Shown here: piece after piece, positions 47,201-53,924 of the stretch
Position numbering within the stretch: the first letter of the stretch is position 1
How the letters are laid out: each line of letters opens with the position of its first letter
Assembly: GCF_009914755.1 (NCBI RefSeq)
Contig: NC_060936.1
DNA: 64,000 bases
Direction: 5' to 3' (one strand)
From: the human T2T-CHM13v2.0 reference genome, Homo sapiens
Notes under the pieces: model-generated
The model's database searches: none
What the model was told of the DNA's origin: nothing
The model's input: the letters and a program-made list of their open reading frames with translations, nothing else
Made by a program: the position numbers and the translations under genes

Positions 47201-48060
47201 CAAGCTCCTTCAGCTGGCCCTTAAGGAATGGTGTGGTTTGGACACTGTCCCCATCCCTCAGTCACACTGTTTCCCTATTTCCTTTACAAACACACCTCCC
47301 GTGTGCCTGCCTTTGCTCTTGCCACTCCCTTTGCAGGAACACTCTTTCCCAGGTTTTCATAGAACCTACACCTTGGTAACATTCTGGTCTCAGCACAAAC
47401 CAGCTGCACATCCTCAGAGAAGCCTTTCTACCCACCCATGTAAAACAGCAGCCCTGCCCGCTGCCAGCCTCACTTCAATGACTCTCCATCGCATCCCTTG
47501 ATTATGTATCCCAGATATACCCCAGATCTCCAAATCAGACTTCCTGGTAGTGGGGCCTGCCAATCTTTCCTTTTATTAAGCTACCTCTGGGGATTCTGAT
47601 ATGCAACCAATTTAGGAACCCTCAGTCTGTGGTATAATGGGAAAGGAAAGAATGGTAGGCATGTTGAGGTGTGCTGTGGTTCACGGCGAGTGTTTTGTTC
47701 CTCATGAGTTTTGATAGTCCAATATTACAGTGATGTAGGATACTACAAACCCACTGTAATTTTGCAGCAATAAATTACTGTCATTCCCTTGCTTGTTTAT
47801 AAATGCCACCTGAAACCTCAATCAACAAAATTGTGGAGAATCTGTTAGAAACAGAGCCAAAAATTCCTCCAACTTCTTCGTAGAACAGTTATGATCATAC
47901 AAGTGAGAAGACTAAGTGAAGAATGGACAGCTAAAGGATTCGACAAATTAATAGGTTGAAGGAATACAGACATAGTTTTTTAAGCCAGGAAACTGTGGGT
48001 GCTTACAAATCTTTGGGAAAATACTCACTGTCACCAAGAATTTTAAGATTAAAATATTTG

Positions 48061-50184
48061 GTGAACTGGGAGGTACCAGGTCAGGAGGGCCCAGGGGCCA
48101 GGGCCATGGCTGGGAGCGGCTCCATTCTGGCGCCCCAGCTCCTCCAGGTCACAGTCCTCGTTCCGTCCCCTCGCCCACTGCTTGCATGACCCTGAGAGGC
48201 ATCTCTGTAGGGCTACTGAGCCCACAGACCCAGCCTGCGTGTTCTGCACACGTGGGTCTCAAGACTAAGAAAGATGGGAGGACACAGAGCTGACCAGCCA
48301 AGTATAAGGACCCTGGTCACGCTGTGCATCTGCAGCCCCTGCCCAACTGTCTGCCTGCCCCGGATGGATTCTGTCCCAGAATCCAAGGGCTGCCTGAACA
48401 GGATGACAGGGTCATGCCCAGGGTCAGAGGCACTGAGGCACCTGGCATCCCGAGTGTAACTGGCAGGACCTGCTGGTGCTGCAGGAGCAGACGAGGGCAG
48501 ATGAGATCCTCATCAGGAACACCTTCCACACTTACCACCAGCAGTGACTCATGCCTGGCATTCTGCTGGCCAATTGCACTGAAGTTTTTCATGGGGAGGA
48601 GCATATTGCAGCTGTGGGAGCTGGGTGTACTAGGCCCCACCATCAAAGGATATGGCTGTATTGGGGTCTCATGTGTGGCCTATGCACTTCTGGTCTAAAA
48701 GCTGGAGTGGGTGGACAGTGGCTACAGGTTGGCAATGAGTGTCTAGTCCTCCTCTAGTCATGCGCCCTATCTACACCTACATCAGTGAGGAGCAGTGGCA
48801 GAAGTATTAGGTTGGTGCAAAAGTAATTGTGCTTTTTGCCATTACTTCTAATGACAAAAACTGCAATTATGTTTGCAGCAACCTATACCTGCCCCCTGCT
48901 GGCCAAGGGGGCGCTCCTGCGCTACTTCAGGCTCATAGAGCCCAACTGCAGGAGTGACCCCGGCAGCATGGAGATCAGAACCTGCCATAACCCCTGGAAT
49001 AAGAGCTGCACCCTCAATGGGACCACCCTGATCCAACGGGACCTGAATCACCACCAGGATCCAGTGAGACCTAGGTCACCACCTCACCTGTGGCCAACCT
49101 GTTTGTAGCGTGGGCTGGAAGATGGCTACCTTCAGGGCTTCCTGTCGGAGAAGGGTATGTGGGGTCTCTTGGCCTCCAAGATTGAGGGCAAGTTCTCCCT
49201 GCGGGCCTCTGCCATGGGCATGATCATCGTGGACAGCGTGGAGGTGGAGGACGTGCTGCTCAGTGCAGGCAGCCTGGAGGGTCCCTTTGGCTGCCTGAAC
49301 AACGCCAGATCTGGTATCATGTGGGGAGTGCTTGGAGCTGCCGAGTTTTGTCTGCTCGTGGCCAGGCAGTACACCCCACACAGGATCCAGTTTGGCATCC
49401 TGTTGGTCAGGCACCAGCTGATTCAGAAGTTGGAGGTCACGCTGGGCCTTCATGCCTGTCTGCAGCACAGCCACTTGAAGAATCAGGGCAAGGCAGCCCC
49501 CGGACAGGTCTCTCTGCTAAAGACGAATAACTATGAAAAAAGCCTGGACATTGCCTGCCAGGCCTGAGACATGCTGGGGGGTACTGGGGTTTCTGATGAC
49601 TATCATATGGTCCGGAACATCAGGAACTCAGAGGCCATGAAAACCTCTGAGGGTACACATGACATGCGCACCCTGATCCTGGAAAGACCTGTCACGGGAA
49701 TCCACAAATTCACGGCTGGCAAGTGAGCCCATCCAGCCAGTGGCCCAAAGCTCTCAAACCCCTTCCCAGAGACAGGCCTGGCTGGACCATGGGAATGCTG
49801 TGTTCTGAGCTTAGGAAGGAAGCTAGCGGATGGAGTGGGAAGTGAGAGACACTGATTTTTAAATATCAGAATTTCCCTTCTGAAGTTGTTCAGATGTGTT
49901 CCTTAAAAAGAAGATGGAATTCTCTGTAGAGTTTCTCAGTCCACTTTTAACAATGGATGAGAACAGACTCCATTTACCTTGAAATAGAAACATCTATTGA
50001 GAGAAGGAGTGTGACATTGAAGCAACTTCCTGGAGACCCCCTTGGTCTCTGCCTGAGCAGACTCCCCTCACATCAAGGGTTCACAGTGCACCCTCCGACC
50101 CTTCCATCCGGGGTTAGTGCCTTATGCTGGACATTGGAGCAGAATAAGGGAGAGGAAAATAAGAAGGCTGCACGTCTGACCCCA
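48061..50184 (+). pseudogene. Semi-processed pseudogene of glutaryl-CoA dehydrogenase (GCDH)
   Basis: ATG at 48186 (MTLRGISVGLLS ~ GCDH MALRGVSVRLLS). Peptides [39 protein letters not shown]-like, EGTHDM; stop TGA at 49724-49726; GCDH-like 3'UTR to ~50184. Coding exons are joined without introns and carry many stops and frameshifts. Confidence 0.95.
48807..48885. mobile_element. MADE1 (Hsmar1-derived MITE)
   Basis: TTAGGTTGGTGCAAAAGTAATTG...CAATTATGTTTGCAGCAACCTA palindrome. TA TSD (48805-48806 and 48886-48887) duplicating the TA of the GCDH AAG-TAC-CTG (KYL) codons. Confidence 0.95.
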
Positions 50185-50197
50185 TAGTGTTGGGTTA

Positions 50198-50375
50198 CAT
50201 TGACTGGTAACCACCTGAGAAGTAGTTTCAGTCACAGGAGAAATGAACACGTCTGGGTGCTCTGAGTCATGGGAACGTGGTAGGGACGGCATTTACTGGT
50301 AACCACCTGAGAAGTAGTTTCAGCCACAGGAGAAATGAACACATCTGAATGCTGTGAGTCACTGGGACATGGTGG
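50198..50375. repeat. 92-bp-period tandem duplication
   Basis: CATT(G/T)ACTGGTAACCACCTGAGAAGTAGTTTCAG(T/C)CACAGGAGAAATGAACAC... starts at 50198 and again at 50290. Confidence 0.92.
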
Positions 50376-50406
50376 TCTAGCCCATGTCTGAGTCTTAGGC
50401 TCTGCT
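50306..50406 (-). pseudogene. SYCE2 penultimate-exon remnant (antisense inside the GCDH retrocopy)
   Basis: Minus strand: tttattacag|CAG AGC CTA AGA CTC AGA (QSLRLR)...PPCPSDSQHSDVFISPVAETTSQ|gtggtt, versus recalled SYCE2 QSLRLRWGPDH...PPRPGNSQPPDVFVSSVAETTSQ. Confidence 0.85.
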
Positions 50407-50773
50407 GTAATAAATAAACCCAAGTTAGCACTGCCCAGGCCCCTGGGGGGCATATACCAGGGATGCAGGGCTCAAGGCTGTAGATGGAGAGGACAGTTTC
50501 TGACCAGCAGGGGTGCAGGGGATTTTGTTCTTTCTGTCACCACACAGCTGATCACGTGATGGTGGGAAATGACAGTGGTCTGGCTTCTCCGCTTGGACAC
50601 ACCATGTTACAGGGGGTCACAAATGAGATGGCAAAAGCACCACGGGCCTTGTGGGGACTGTGGCCTTGTGAGGTCAGGGCTGGCTGCCTGGTTTCTGTTC
50701 ACATTTACTATCAGCTGGGCCATCCCTGCTTCCTCAGGCAGAGCCCCCCATTGAGTTTGCTCAGGCGGGATAC

Positions 50774-50961
50774 CTCAGACCGGATGCACAGGTCTTTGTA
50801 CACAGTCTCCTTCTGTGGCCATCTTGGTTAAGCTCTGTTTCCAAATGGCTGATCTTTGCCACTTTCTGAGTGAACCCCTGGAGCTTTTCCTAGATGATCT
50901 TGATGTTATCATTATAAAGCTGATAGATCCTCTCCTCTAACTGCTCTGTCAGATCCAAAAC
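50774..50961 (-). pseudogene. SYCE2 internal coiled-coil exon remnant (antisense inside the GCDH retrocopy)
   Basis: Manual translation VLDLTEQLEERIYQLYNDNIKII*EKLQGFTQKVAKISHLETELNQDGHR/ETVYKDLCIRSE|gtatcc, versus recalled SYCE2 VSDLTEKLEERIYQIYNDHNKIIQEKLQEFTQKMAKISHLETELKQVCHSVETVYKDLCLQPE. One stop, a 1-nt deletion, and acceptor AG changed to AA. Confidence 0.9.
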
Positions 50962-51184
50962 TTTTCAAAGAATAAGACACATTCTTGGAAAATCAGACAA
51001 GATGTATCACCAGCCATTTATTCTAAGTGGATCTCAAATTTCTGCAATTTATCTTATATAATGCTAAAACAAACAACCCCCCCACGCCATCCCACCACCC
51101 CCCCACACACACAAAACAAAACAAAAAAAAACCAGTGCAGTCACTGCGGAGCTAAATTTTTTAAGAGGTGAAAACATATAAAGT

Positions 51185-51505
51185 CAGTTGCCACATAGTG
51201 ATGTTTTGGTCAATATCGGGTTGTATATGCAATGATGGTCCTGTAAGATTATAATATCTTATCATAATTTTACTGTACGTTTTCTTTGTTTAGATATGTT
51301 TGAATACACAAATACTTACCATGGTGTTACAATTGCCTATAGTATTCAGTATAGTAACATGTTGTGCAGGTTTGTAGCCTAGGAGCAATAGGCTATACCA
51401 TCTAGGTTTGTGTAAGTACAATCTATGATGTTCAGACAATGATAAAGTTGCTTAACTTCGCATTTCTCAGTAATGTTCCAATTGTAAAGTGATGCATGAT
51501 TTTAT
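51185..51505 (+). mobile_element. Tigger3a/MER7-like (TcMar-Tigger) MITE
   Basis: cacatagtgatgttttggtcaat...gatggtcctgtaagattataat...gtttgtagcctaggagcaataggctatacca...tgatgcatga matches recalled Tigger3 derivatives. Confidence 0.8.
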
Positions 51506-51603
51506 ACAGTATAAATTCAACTAGGTTAGAAAGAAAGTACATAAAACAGGGGCTAGAAGAGGCATGCAACAAAGTGGTCTCTGGGTGATGTATCAAATAC
51601 ATG

Positions 51604-52497
51604 TTTATATATATATTTATATATTATATATATATATTTATATATTATATATATATATTTATATATTATATATTAAATATATATTTATATATTATATATA
51701 TATATTTATATATTATATATATATTATATTTATATTTTATATATTATATATATATTATATTTATATATAATATATTATATATATATTATATTTATATATA
51801 ATATATAAATATAATATATTTATATATTATATATAAATATATTATATTTATATATTATATATAAATATATTATATTTATATATTATATATAAATATATTA
51901 TATTTATATATTATATATAAATATAATATATATATAATATATAAAATATAAATATAATATATATATAATATATAAATATATATATAATATATAAATATAT
52001 ATTTATATATTATATATAAATATATTATATTTATATATTATATATAAATATATTATATTTATATATTATATATAAATATATTATATTTATATATTATATA
52101 TAAATATATTATATTTATATATATATTATATTTATATATTATATATAAATATATATATTATATTTATATATATTATATTTATATATATAATATATTTATA
52201 TATTATATATAAAATATATATATTATATAAATATAATATATATATTATATATATAATATATATTTTATATATAATATATATATTTATATAAAATATATAT
52301 ATTTAATATAAATATATATTTATATATAATATATATTATATATATAATATAAATATATATATATAATATATATTTATATTATATATATAATATATAATAT
52401 ATATTTATATTATATATATAATATATAAATATATAATATATATATATTATATATTATATATAAATATATAATATATATATTATATATTTTTTTTTAA
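51604..52497. repeat. 894-bp interrupted (TA)n / AT-only minisatellite
   Basis: No G or C between 51603 and 52498. Internal 28-bp unit TATATATTATATATAAATATATTATATT from 51821. Confidence 0.97.
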
Positions 52498-52592
52498 CTG
52501 CGTTATGCATTTCTCTACTTTCTAAATTTTCTATGCTGTACCAGGGTATGTACCAATAGGGATTGGGCAGGGGGGCATAAAAGTGGAAAATA

Positions 52593-52888
52593 GGTTGGGC
52601 ACAGTGGGCCACCCCTGTAATCTTAGCACTCTGGGAGGCCAAGGCAGGAGGATGGCTTGAGGCTAGGATTTCAAGACCAGCCCGGGTAACATAGTGATAC
52701 CCCATCTTCAAAAAAAAAAAAATTGTTTTTTATTTGTGGGGTGTGGCGGCACACACCTGTAGTTCCAAGCTACTTAGGAGGCTGAGGTGGGAGCATCTCT
52801 TGAGCCCAGGAGTTTGAGGCTGCAGTGAGCTATAATTGCACTACTGCACCTAGCCTAGGGAACACAGTAAGACCTTGTCTCCAAAAAA
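52593..52888 (+). mobile_element. AluJ
   Basis: ggaggatggcttgaggctagg and gagcccaggagtttgaggctgcagtgagctataattg are AluJ diagnostics. Confidence 0.9.
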
Positions 52889-53924
52889 CTGGTGGGGTGG
52901 GGGCGGGTAATAAAGTCAACCTTTCATTGACACACGTGGAATTAGCAAGCTGTTCCATTCATGAGATCCATTATATTTGAAGAGGCATCAGGCATAACCA
53001 TTAATTTAGGACCTGAACATAGCATCAGGCATTGCAAGACATAAGCTCCTGGCATGTTGAAGAACCCCAGCTCTCCCATCAGAGAATATTTGATGACTTC
53101 TGGAGGACGTGGATGTGACAATGCAAGCTGTGCCTCAACCCCGACTACCGTAGCTATTCATCCCTGTGTGAAGTGAGAGGGCTGGGCATTGGATGCAGGG
53201 GAATCTGGGCCCTCAGCCTGGCTCTCTAACTTGGGCAAATCATTCATTTCCAAATGTTATCCATACAATGAGTCCAATATCTTATTTTCAGGATTATTGT
53301 AAGGGTGAATTAAGATACAGGTGGTCCCCAACTTACTATGATTTGATGTATAATTTTTCAACTTTATAATGAGTTTACTGGGGTATAAAGTACATTTTCA
53401 ACTTATGAAACAAAAAAGGTTAAAACATTTAAAGGTTGTGAAAGTGTGAAAACAAGAAAAAGAATAGAAGGTGGCCATACGATCAGCAAAATTTAATAAA
53501 TTGTGTGAGTGGAAGGATTATTTTCCTGCCAAACAAACATGAGATCCATAGAGAAATTATTTCCCAGGAGCTTTATAAGATTTTGAGTTTGTCTTAGCAA
53601 CATTTAAGTCATTGGAGGTATCATTTTCATGGTATGCTTCCAAATTTAACATTTAAATAGGAAAAAAAGTCCCAAGCCAAATTTGAATACCCATAACCAA
53701 TAACTAGAAATGCAATTCAGTCAATATATGACTGACGGTGTTGTAATTGTTCATACTATGGCTAAGAAGAAATGTTACCCCTCTCTGAAATGTCCCCATT
53801 TCCCCATCTAGATGTAATCTATCCTAGCACCATTTATTTATTTATTATTTGTTATTTATTTATTTGCTGGAAATTACAGTTACTTATAAATATGTGTGTC
53901 CTACTCTACAAGTTCCTTTGTGCA

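What the first reader, a model, noticed from the sequence alone, without database searches (positions are those of the whole stretch)
48061..51131. GCDH retrocopy is a fossil read-through transcript that carried antisense SYCE2 exons and an intron
Seen: after the GCDH-like 3'UTR (~50184) there is no poly(A). Parent-like, GC-richer sequence continues ~900 bp to an A/C-rich tail at ~51066-51131. On the minus strand this extension encodes two SYCE2 exons (50774-50961 and 50306-50406) with donors (GAG|GTATCC, CAG|GTGGTT), an acceptor (TTACAG|CAG) and the ~370-bp intron between them. GCDH coding introns on the plus strand are spliced out. Knowledge (recalled): GCDH and the meiotic synaptonemal-complex gene SYCE2 overlap tail-to-tail. 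Inference: the template was a plus-strand GCDH RNA that ignored its poly(A) site, making it a natural antisense transcript of SYCE2 present in germline or early embryo. The SYCE2 last exon (ATASEV...) is absent, as expected if it lies in a spliced-out GCDH intron. The larger SYCE2 exon does not appear in the ORF track.
Basis: partly seen in the sequence, partly recalled or inferred. Interest (0 to 1): 0.9.

Follow-up and report, generated by a model that had tools for sequence, protein, structure and literature searches.

The report
Read-through GCDH retrocopy carrying antisense SYCE2

Summary
Window 48061-50185 is a spliced, disabled copy of GCDH, whose parent lies on chr19 of the same assembly. 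It runs on, without a poly(A), into DNA collinear with the sequence downstream of GCDH. That DNA holds two SYCE2 exons in antisense with their intron, and the last SYCE2 coding exon is missing because it lies in GCDH's last intron.

Two points are wrong. The A/C-rich stretch at 51070-51131 is not the tail. Both of its flanks match chr19, and collinearity continues to about 53400. The gaps are later Alu insertions in chr19 and a TA microsatellite in the window. The copy is therefore about 48061-53417, ending in a 10-nt A run and a weak candidate target-site duplication.

Splicing was also imperfect. One intron was removed from a cryptic donor, which left 137 nt in the copy, and a 68-nt GT-AG interval in the 5'UTR is retained.

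Divergence (K2P about 0.2) and a later MITE insertion suggest an age of roughly 40-80 Myr. A 2026 paper's supplement lists present-day GCDH exons and junctions beyond the same poly(A) site, so read-through here is already annotated. Interest is low to moderate.

The parts
48045..48059 (.). Candidate 5' copy of the target-site duplication (AAGATTAAAATATTT). It contains a TTAAAA motif.
   Evidence: It matches 53416-53430 at 13 of 15 positions. Support is weak: 176 of 2000 shuffles and 38 of 728 other 80-nt tiles score as high.
48061..48185 (+). 5' end of the retrocopy, the GCDH 5'UTR. It includes 48080-48147, the counterpart of a 69-nt GT...AG interval on chr19 that is retained here.
   Evidence: Homology to chr19 starts exactly at 48061, matching 13015633. 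The chr19 sequence shows CAG|GTAAGG ... CTGTAG|GTC. Whether the reference mRNA removes this interval could not be checked.
48186..49726 (+). Disabled GCDH coding sequence, from the ATG to the TGA.
   Evidence: All 10 introns between the 11 parent coding exons are absent. Every parent junction is GT-AG. There are 5 premature stops in the parent frame, with Ka 0.178 and Ks 0.337 over 422 of 439 codons. The best PDB hits are human glutaryl-CoA dehydrogenase chains, E 3.6e-55.
48304..48440 (+). 137 nt of parent intron kept because a cryptic 5' splice site was used.
   Evidence: The block 48268-48440 matches chr19 13015939-13016112 and ends exactly before GTGAGT on chr19. The next block starts at the normal acceptor. 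Read in frame on chr19, the extension ends in a TAA stop.
48808..48885 (.). An 80-bp palindromic MITE inserted after retroposition, at a TA in the coding sequence. The name MADE1 is recalled, not tested.
   Evidence: It is absent from chr19. 69 of the 81 rows fall in this stretch, often on both strands at one locus. Its 37-nt arms are 81% complementary.
49022..49083 (+). Local 28-bp tandem duplication over a spliced exon junction.
49727..50185 (+). GCDH 3'UTR up to the counterpart of the canonical poly(A) site. The hexamer reads AATAAG at 50158-50163, and no A run follows.
   Evidence: The site is continuous with the chr19 last exon.
50186..53407 (+). Read-through extension, collinear with chr19 from about 13024430 to about 13028800.
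   Evidence: Single-copy collinear alignments are seen. The chr19-only gaps are Alu clusters. K2P is 0.197 over 1576 aligned nt, similar to the mRNA part.
50198..50367 (+). 92-bp tandem duplication (1.8 copies), made during or after retroposition.
   Evidence: On chr19 the two BLAST pieces overlap by 88 bp.
50307..50404 (-). SYCE2 39-codon exon in antisense, with a partial second copy at 50215-50286.
   Evidence: tblastn of the chr19 exon peptide gives 16/23 and 15/24 identities (E 6e-7 and 6e-6), plus 9/11 at 50372-50404 (E 0.08).
50405..50773 (-). SYCE2 intron, present because the template was the opposite strand.
   Evidence: It is continuous with chr19 13024574-13024912.
50774..50961 (-). 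SYCE2 63-codon exon in antisense.
   Evidence: tblastn gives 38/49 identities at E 3e-20, plus 9/12. The parent exon is 100% identical to PDB 6r17_A residues 50-112.
51070..51131 (+). A/C-rich low-complexity run. This is not the poly(A) tail.
   Evidence: Both flanks match chr19: 51040-51069 with 13025182-13025212, and 51113-51149 with 13025997-13026034. Between these points chr19 carries later Alus.
51154..51597 (+). Copy of a common interspersed repeat that was already in the parent and was carried in the RNA.
   Evidence: It matches chr19 13026374-13026807 in a collinear position, and the flanks match too. The family is abundant, with 4109 first-look candidates.
51606..52487 (.). TA microsatellite expanded in the window. 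chr19 has a short (AAAT)n at this position.
52594..52888 (+). Old Alu, probably carried in the RNA, but this is unresolved.
   Evidence: It differs by 25% from the local Alu consensus. Its best pairwise identity among 66 other Alus (0.787) is to the chr19 Alu at the collinear place, 13026851-13027080. Its shared non-consensus states (26) are no more than for other old Alus (28, 25, 23).
52909..53338 (+). Last clearly parent-like stretch.
   Evidence: 52909-52974 matches 13027284-13027349 (E 1e-14), and 52972-53338 matches 13028360-13028738 (77%, E 1e-75).
53408..53417 (+). A run (AAACAAAAAA), the likely remnant of the real poly(A) tail.
   Evidence: It has no counterpart in chr19 at this point.
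53416..53430 (.). Candidate 3' copy of the target-site duplication (AAGGTTAAAACATTT).
   Evidence: Support is weak.

Best explanation
Window 48061 to about 53417 is one old LINE-1-type processed pseudogene of GCDH. It sits inside an intron of C12orf42, on the opposite strand.

Its template was a single plus-strand RNA from the GCDH promoter on chr19, and that RNA was poorly processed:
- It kept a 68-nt GT-AG interval in the 5'UTR.
- It removed one intron from a cryptic donor 138 nt downstream of the normal one. In today's chr19 sequence this puts a stop codon in frame.
- It removed the other nine coding introns normally.
- It was not cleaved at the canonical AATAAA site.

Instead it ran on for roughly 2 kb, which is 4.4 kb of today's Alu-laden chr19. 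On the way it passed antisense through two SYCE2 exons, the intron between them and most of the next intron. It ended about 130 bp short of the next SYCE2 exon.

It was polyadenylated there, or primed there, then reverse-transcribed and inserted in the germline or early embryo.

Later changes in the window were an 80-bp MITE, tandem duplications of 28 bp and 92 bp, a TA microsatellite expansion, and point decay.

Shown: collinearity, exact intron loss, the cryptic junction, the absence of a tail at the canonical site, and the SYCE2 content. Inferred: L1 as the machinery, the exact 3' end, the age, and the germline origin.
For: - Parent and collinearity: there are 11 chr19 pieces in order. 13 single-copy collinear alignments out of 648 HSPs span 48061-53338 against chr19 13015633-13028738.
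- Exact GT-AG junctions for all 10 coding introns.
- Cryptic donor: the retained block ends at GGCA|GTGAGT on chr19, and the extension reads into a stop.
- The last exon is continuous through the AATAAA site with no A run.
- SYCE2 exons are present in antisense. The last SYCE2 exon lies in the spliced-out GCDH intron.
- The supposed tail is bridged on both sides, and the chr19-only segments are Alus.
- Divergence is similar across parts, as expected for one event: K2P is 0.215 for coding exons, 0.152 for the last exon and 0.197 for the extension.
- No homology is found beyond 53338. An A run absent from chr19, plus a 13/15 direct repeat, abuts both ends.
- Read-through at this site exists today. 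The supplementary table of PMC13187750 lists a GCDH exon at chr19:12899468-12900318 that spans the poly(A) site at 12899951, and a junction 12897863-12900234. With a constant offset of 124,453 these land on the chr19 last-exon start, the stop, the AATAAA, a plus-strand acceptor (13024687) and a donor (13024771) that I see in the sequence.
Against: - The tail is only 10 nt.
- The target-site duplication is not statistically secure: 176 of 2000 shuffles and 38 of 728 other tiles reach its score. The 14-mer with up to 3 mismatches occurs 28 times in the window against 20 expected.
- The last 70 nt or so of homology lie in an internally repetitive transposon remnant, and their alignment is ambiguous.
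- There is no poly(A) hexamer on chr19 at the distal end. The window has TATAAA at 53384-53389, but chr19 does not.
- No outgroup genome was available. The ancestral state of the canonical hexamer (AATAAA or AATAAG) and the age are therefore inferred.
- The hg38-to-CHM13 offset is my own inference from matching features.
Confidence: 0.85

Rival explanations
1. One reading: the retrocopy ends at 51131, the A/C-rich run is its decayed poly(A) tail, and the extension is about 0.9 kb.
For: BLAST homology pauses at 51069, and an A/C-rich run follows.
Against: Sequence right after the run (51113-51149, 51154-51200) matches chr19 just beyond a later Alu cluster. Collinearity then continues for another 2 kb. 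The best direct repeat near 51131 (51159-51177, reached by 272 of 2000 shuffles) lies in parent-derived sequence.
Confidence: 0.03
2. The copy was once longer. The 3' boundary near 53400 is a later deletion or rearrangement, not the end of the RNA.
For: The tail is very short and the target-site duplication is weak. No poly(A) signal is seen on chr19 at that point.
Against: An A run absent from chr19 sits exactly at the end of homology. It is followed at once by a 13/15 match to the 15 nt that precede the 5' end.
Confidence: 0.1
3. A chimeric retrocopy: reverse transcriptase switched templates between a normal GCDH mRNA and a separate plus-strand RNA from the SYCE2 region.
For: Template switching during L1 reverse transcription is known (recalled). 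The 92-bp duplication lies close to the canonical poly(A) site.
Against: The join would have to fall at exactly adjacent genomic bases. The last exon and the extension are one unbroken alignment across the poly(A) site, and there is no A run there.
Confidence: 0.03
4. A DNA-level duplication of the chr19 locus, followed by loss of introns.
For: About 2 kb of unspliced genomic sequence is present, including an intron and repeats.
Against: All 10 GCDH coding introns are removed at exact splice junctions. The copy starts near the promoter-proximal 5'UTR, and nothing upstream of 48061 matches chr19.
Confidence: 0.01

Closest known systems
Ordinary L1-mediated processed pseudogenes. This one is annotated as LOC644203, 'glutaryl-CoA dehydrogenase, mitochondrial-like'.
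   Same: It is an intron-less, disabled copy on another chromosome, with an A run and a possible target-site duplication.
   Different: The annotation covers only 48501-49723. The copy actually spans about 5.4 kb, and about 3.2 kb of that lies beyond the parent's poly(A) site, in the opposite sense to a neighbouring gene.
L1 3' transduction: an RNA that skips its own poly(A) site and carries downstream DNA. Seen in a figure-legend passage of PMC5470649 that cites Goodier 2000 and Pickeral 2000.
   Same: The logic is the same. A bypassed poly(A) site means flanking genomic sequence is retroposed.
   Different: Here the RNA is from a cellular gene mobilised in trans, not from an L1.
Processed pseudogenes as records of past transcript isoforms (Shemesh et al. 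[quoted passage not shown] I saw this only as an entry in the reference list of PMC5470649. Its content is recalled.
   Same: The retrocopy preserves non-reference splice and 3'-end choices.
   Different: This is a single case. It combines a cryptic donor, a retained 5'UTR interval and a long read-through.
Present-day GCDH isoforms that extend past the canonical site (rows for GCDH in the supplementary table of PMC13187750).
   Same: They begin at the same last-exon start and pass the same poly(A) site on the same strand.
   Different: The listed isoforms splice at a donor (chr19 13024771) or use an acceptor (13024687). The retrocopy's template read straight through both points, at window positions 50631 and 50546.
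PIPSL, a hominoid retrogene made from a read-through, intergenically spliced transcript of two tandem genes. Recalled; no paper seen.
   Same: It is a retrocopy of a read-through transcript that takes in a neighbouring gene.
   Different: PIPSL joins two same-strand genes by splicing, and the product is expressed. Here the neighbour is on the opposite strand, unspliced, and the copy is dead.

Membership tests
L1-type processed pseudogene (retrocopy) | Parental introns removed at exact exon junctions | tested here: met
   10 of 10 coding introns are absent. Nine were removed at the canonical junctions and one from a cryptic donor.
L1-type processed pseudogene (retrocopy) | Poly(A) tail at the 3' end | tested here: inconclusive
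   Only a 10-nt A run at 53408-53417, which is absent from chr19.
L1-type processed pseudogene (retrocopy) | Target-site duplication abutting both ends | tested here: inconclusive
   A 13/15 match between 48045-59 and 53416-30. 176 of 2000 shuffles and 38 of 728 tiles score as high.
L1-type processed pseudogene (retrocopy) | Located away from the parent and without the parent's promoter | tested here: met
   The parent is on chr19 and the copy on chr12. Window sequence upstream of 48061 has no match to chr19.
Retrocopy of a 3' read-through transcript | Unbroken collinearity with parent genomic DNA across and beyond the canonical poly(A) site, with no A run there | tested here: met
Cis natural antisense transcript of SYCE2 | RNA from the opposite strand overlapping SYCE2 exons | tested here: met
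   The template must have contained two SYCE2 exons and an intron in antisense. Present-day plus-strand exons in the same region are listed in the supplement of PMC13187750.
Cis natural antisense transcript of SYCE2 | An effect on SYCE2 expression | not testable with these tools
   No expression data were available. The copy shows no A-to-G excess that would suggest editing of a double-stranded RNA: 34 A>G against 51 G>A.
Segmental (DNA) duplication | Introns and flanks copied along with the exons | tested here: not met

The most novel reading that the evidence does not exclude
GCDH transcription that overruns its poly(A) site and runs antisense across SYCE2 is an old, maintained feature of the locus, at least about 40 Myr in age. 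It would be active in germline cells, where SYCE2 is needed. It would tune SYCE2 by transcriptional interference or RNA pairing. The chr12 copy would then be physical proof that this RNA was present in germline or early-embryo cells.
Probability: 0.1. Interest if true: 0.55.

Novelty: new member of a known kind. Interest (0 to 1): 0.3.

Why it matters
The copy dates a piece of transcript behaviour. GCDH RNA was already overrunning its poly(A) site and reading backwards through SYCE2 tens of millions of years ago, in cells that pass DNA to offspring.

It also corrects the extent of an annotated pseudogene from 1.2 kb to about 5.4 kb. Finally, it shows how an A-rich stretch inherited from the parent can be mistaken for a retrocopy's tail.

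It does not reveal a new mechanism. Retrocopies of read-through and mis-spliced RNAs are an expected by-product of L1 activity.

Tried and rejected
- **RNA editing.** If the read-through RNA had paired with SYCE2 RNA and been edited, the copy should show excess A-to-G changes against chr19. It does not: 34 A>G against 51 G>A in the extension, and 19 against 43 in the coding exons.
- **Direct repeat 48044-57 / 51244-57** (13/14) as a target-site duplication. Rejected, because the 3' copy lies in the parent-derived repeat and has a chr19 counterpart.
- **Whether the Alu at 52594-52888 was carried in the RNA.** It has the highest identity to the collinear chr19 Alu among 66 others, but its shared non-consensus states are no more than for other old Alus. 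This is left open.
- **Literature.**
  - No paper holds 'LOC644203', 'GCDHP1' or 'GCDH pseudogene'.
  - 10 papers hold both GCDH and SYCE2. From the titles and abstract starts, none is about the overlap. I read passages of one, PMC2265466, which gives only the gene order in mouse.
  - None of the 15 papers listed from 2,489 in the GCDH/read-through search holds GCDH.
- **Shemesh 2006** (PMC1360558) is not held.
- **Other vertebrate genomes** were not available, so the insertion could not be dated by presence or absence.
Full report
**What is there.**
A search of the window's own assembly with 48061-51131 returned 81 rows: the window itself, 11 pieces on chr19, and 69 rows that all fall in one 80-bp stretch of the query. 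Re-aligning against the fetched chr19 DNA gives an ordered series of blocks from window 48061 (chr19 13015633) to window 51069 (chr19 13025212).

I rebuilt the parent gene from chr19. It has 11 coding exons, all bounded by GT-AG, giving 1317 nt and 438 codons. A 152-residue translation of the window copy has human glutaryl-CoA dehydrogenase chains as its best PDB hits, at E 3.6e-55.

All 10 introns between the coding exons are missing from the window. The copy has 5 premature stops in the parent frame, with Ka 0.178 and Ks 0.337 over 422 of 439 codons. This is a processed pseudogene, annotated in part as LOC644203.

**The template was not a clean mRNA.**
- After the 36-nt second coding exon, the copy keeps 137 more nucleotides (48304-48440). 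They end exactly where chr19 has GGCA|GTGAGT, and the next block starts at the normal acceptor. So a cryptic donor was used. Read in frame on today's chr19, that extension runs into TAA.
- In the 5'UTR, chr19 has a 69-nt interval with CAG|GTAAGG and CTGTAG|GTC ends. Its counterpart is retained at 48080-48147. I could not check whether the reference mRNA removes it.

**The read-through.**
The last exon aligns as one piece from its acceptor, through the stop codon and through the AATAAA at chr19 13024402. The window reads AATAAG at 50158-50163, and no A run follows.

Downstream, on the minus strand, lie two SYCE2 exons:
- The chr19 63-codon exon is 100% identical to PDB 6r17_A, 'Synaptonemal complex central element protein 2'. 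It matches window 50961-50815 at 38/49 identities (E 3e-20) and 50809-50774 at 9/12.
- The 39-codon exon matches 50375-50307 (16/23) and, because of a 92-bp tandem duplication, also 50286-50215 (15/24).

The intron between the two exons (50405-50773) is present, as expected for a template from the other strand. The last SYCE2 coding exon lies at about chr19 13023797-13023838, inside GCDH's last intron and about 80 nt before GCDH's last exon. No match to it is found in the window. I located it with short peptide motifs recalled from memory, and the script then printed the chr19 translation.

**Where the copy really ends.**
The A/C-rich run at 51070-51131 is not a tail:
- On chr19 the homology breaks at 13025212 because an Alu cluster starts there.
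- After the cluster, chr19 13025997-13026034 matches window 51113-51149.
- After one more Alu, chr19 13026374-13026807 matches window 51154-51597. That stretch belongs to an abundant repeat family (4109 first-look candidates), but its unique flanks match too.
- Collinearity continues at 52909-52974 (chr19 13027284-13027349, E 1e-14) and at 52972-53338 (chr19 13028360-13028738, 77%, E 1e-75).

In the whole-window comparison, 13 of 648 HSPs are single-copy on both sides, and all 13 are collinear.

The window-only material in this stretch is a TA microsatellite (51606-52487; chr19 has a short AAAT repeat at that position) and an Alu (52594-52888).

Homology fades at about 53395-53407, inside a short transposon remnant whose internal repeats make the last 70 nt or so ambiguous. 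Then come AAACAAAAAA (53408-53417), which chr19 lacks, and AAGGTTAAAACATTT (53416-53430). The latter matches the 15 nt just before the 5' end (48045-48059) at 13 of 15 positions.

That repeat is only suggestive. 176 of 2000 shuffles and 38 of 728 other tiles score as high, and the related 14-mer with up to 3 mismatches occurs 28 times in the window against 20 expected.

Nothing further downstream matches chr19 up to 13055999. The next SYCE2 exon upstream, at about chr19 13028934-13029115, is not in the copy.

**One event, and its age.**
K2P distances are similar across the parts: 0.215 for coding exons, 0.152 for the last exon and 3'UTR, and 0.197 for the extension (0.179 without CpG sites). 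With primate neutral rates recalled as about 1.2-2.2e-9 per site per year, that gives roughly 40-80 Myr.

The 80-bp palindromic MITE at 48808-48885 was inserted later. Apart from possibly one, none of the chr19 Alus in the copied interval is in the window.

The Alu at 52594-52888 differs by 25% from the local consensus, against 10-11% for four other window Alus. Its closest relative among 66 Alus is the one at the collinear chr19 position (identity 0.787). However, its shared non-consensus states (26) do not stand out from those of other old Alus (28, 25, 23). I lean to it having been carried in the RNA, which would make the event primate-specific. This is not settled.

**Link to what is known.**
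For PMC13187750 I read section 18, passages of sections 7 and 17, the header of the supplementary spreadsheet, and its two GCDH rows. The table lists a GCDH exon at chr19:12899468-12900318 with its stop at 12899541 and a strongly supported poly(A) site at 12899951. It also lists the junctions 12897863-12913995 and 12897863-12900234.

Adding 124,453 to these coordinates places them on features I see in the chr19 sequence:
- the end of the tenth coding exon (13022316)
- the last-exon start (13023921)
- the TGA (13023994)
- the AATAAA hexamer
- a plus-strand acceptor at 13024687
- a donor ATG|GTGAGT at 13024771

The offset is my own inference.

So plus-strand GCDH RNAs that pass this poly(A) site are listed for present-day humans. 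The retrocopy's template ran unspliced through both of those sites, at window positions 50546 and 50631.

The idea that retrocopies record old isoforms is established. I saw the Shemesh 2006 title only in a reference list and recall its content. L1 3' transduction follows the same logic (passage in PMC5470649).

**Checks that gave nothing.**
- There is no A-to-G excess that would point to editing of a sense-antisense duplex.
- Searches for the pseudogene's names found no paper.
- Of the 10 papers that name both genes, none looks to be about the overlap, judged from titles and abstract starts. I read passages of one.

**Verdict.**
The boundaries and the 'tail' are wrong, and the template was more aberrant than described. 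The phenomenon is a known kind. It is a tidy, datable example rather than a surprise.

Noticed in passing
window 48808-48885: An 80-bp palindromic MITE is inserted at a TA inside the pseudo-coding sequence. It has many near-identical copies genome-wide. The name MADE1 is recalled.
   Followed up: partly
window 51606-52487: An 880-bp TA microsatellite sits where the chr19 parent has only a short (AAAT)n. This looks like expansion after the copy was made.
   Followed up: partly
window 50198-50367 and 49022-49083: Two tandem duplications (92 bp and 28 bp) lie inside the retrocopy. The first doubles part of a SYCE2 exon, and the second sits on a spliced exon junction.
   Followed up: partly
L002/L009 (chr19 13023797-13024573): SYCE2's last intron contains the whole GCDH last exon. 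SYCE2's 39-codon exon starts only about 35 nt beyond the GCDH cleavage site, so the two genes interlock rather than just touch.
   Followed up: partly
window 50545-50546 and 50631-50632: The plus-strand acceptor used by a listed present-day GCDH junction is conserved in the copy (CACAG). The plus-strand donor reads GC in the copy, against GT on chr19.
   Followed up: partly
window 48303-48305: The normal donor after the 36-nt exon reads AT in the copy, against GT on chr19. This could be later decay, or a splice-site variant in the source allele that forced use of the cryptic donor. The two cannot be told apart here.
   Followed up: no
window 49950-50039, 50120-50379, 50840-50889: The hub's table lists RefSeq 'enhancer' elements inside the retrocopy's 3'UTR and extension. 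One overlaps the antisense SYCE2 exon.
   Followed up: no
chr19 13025215-13026367 and 13026851-13028355 (L002, L009): A-rich spots in the parent collected clusters of Alus after the copy was made. The window's counterparts stayed mostly Alu-free, so the retrocopy gives a pre-Alu picture of this SYCE2 intron.
   Followed up: partly
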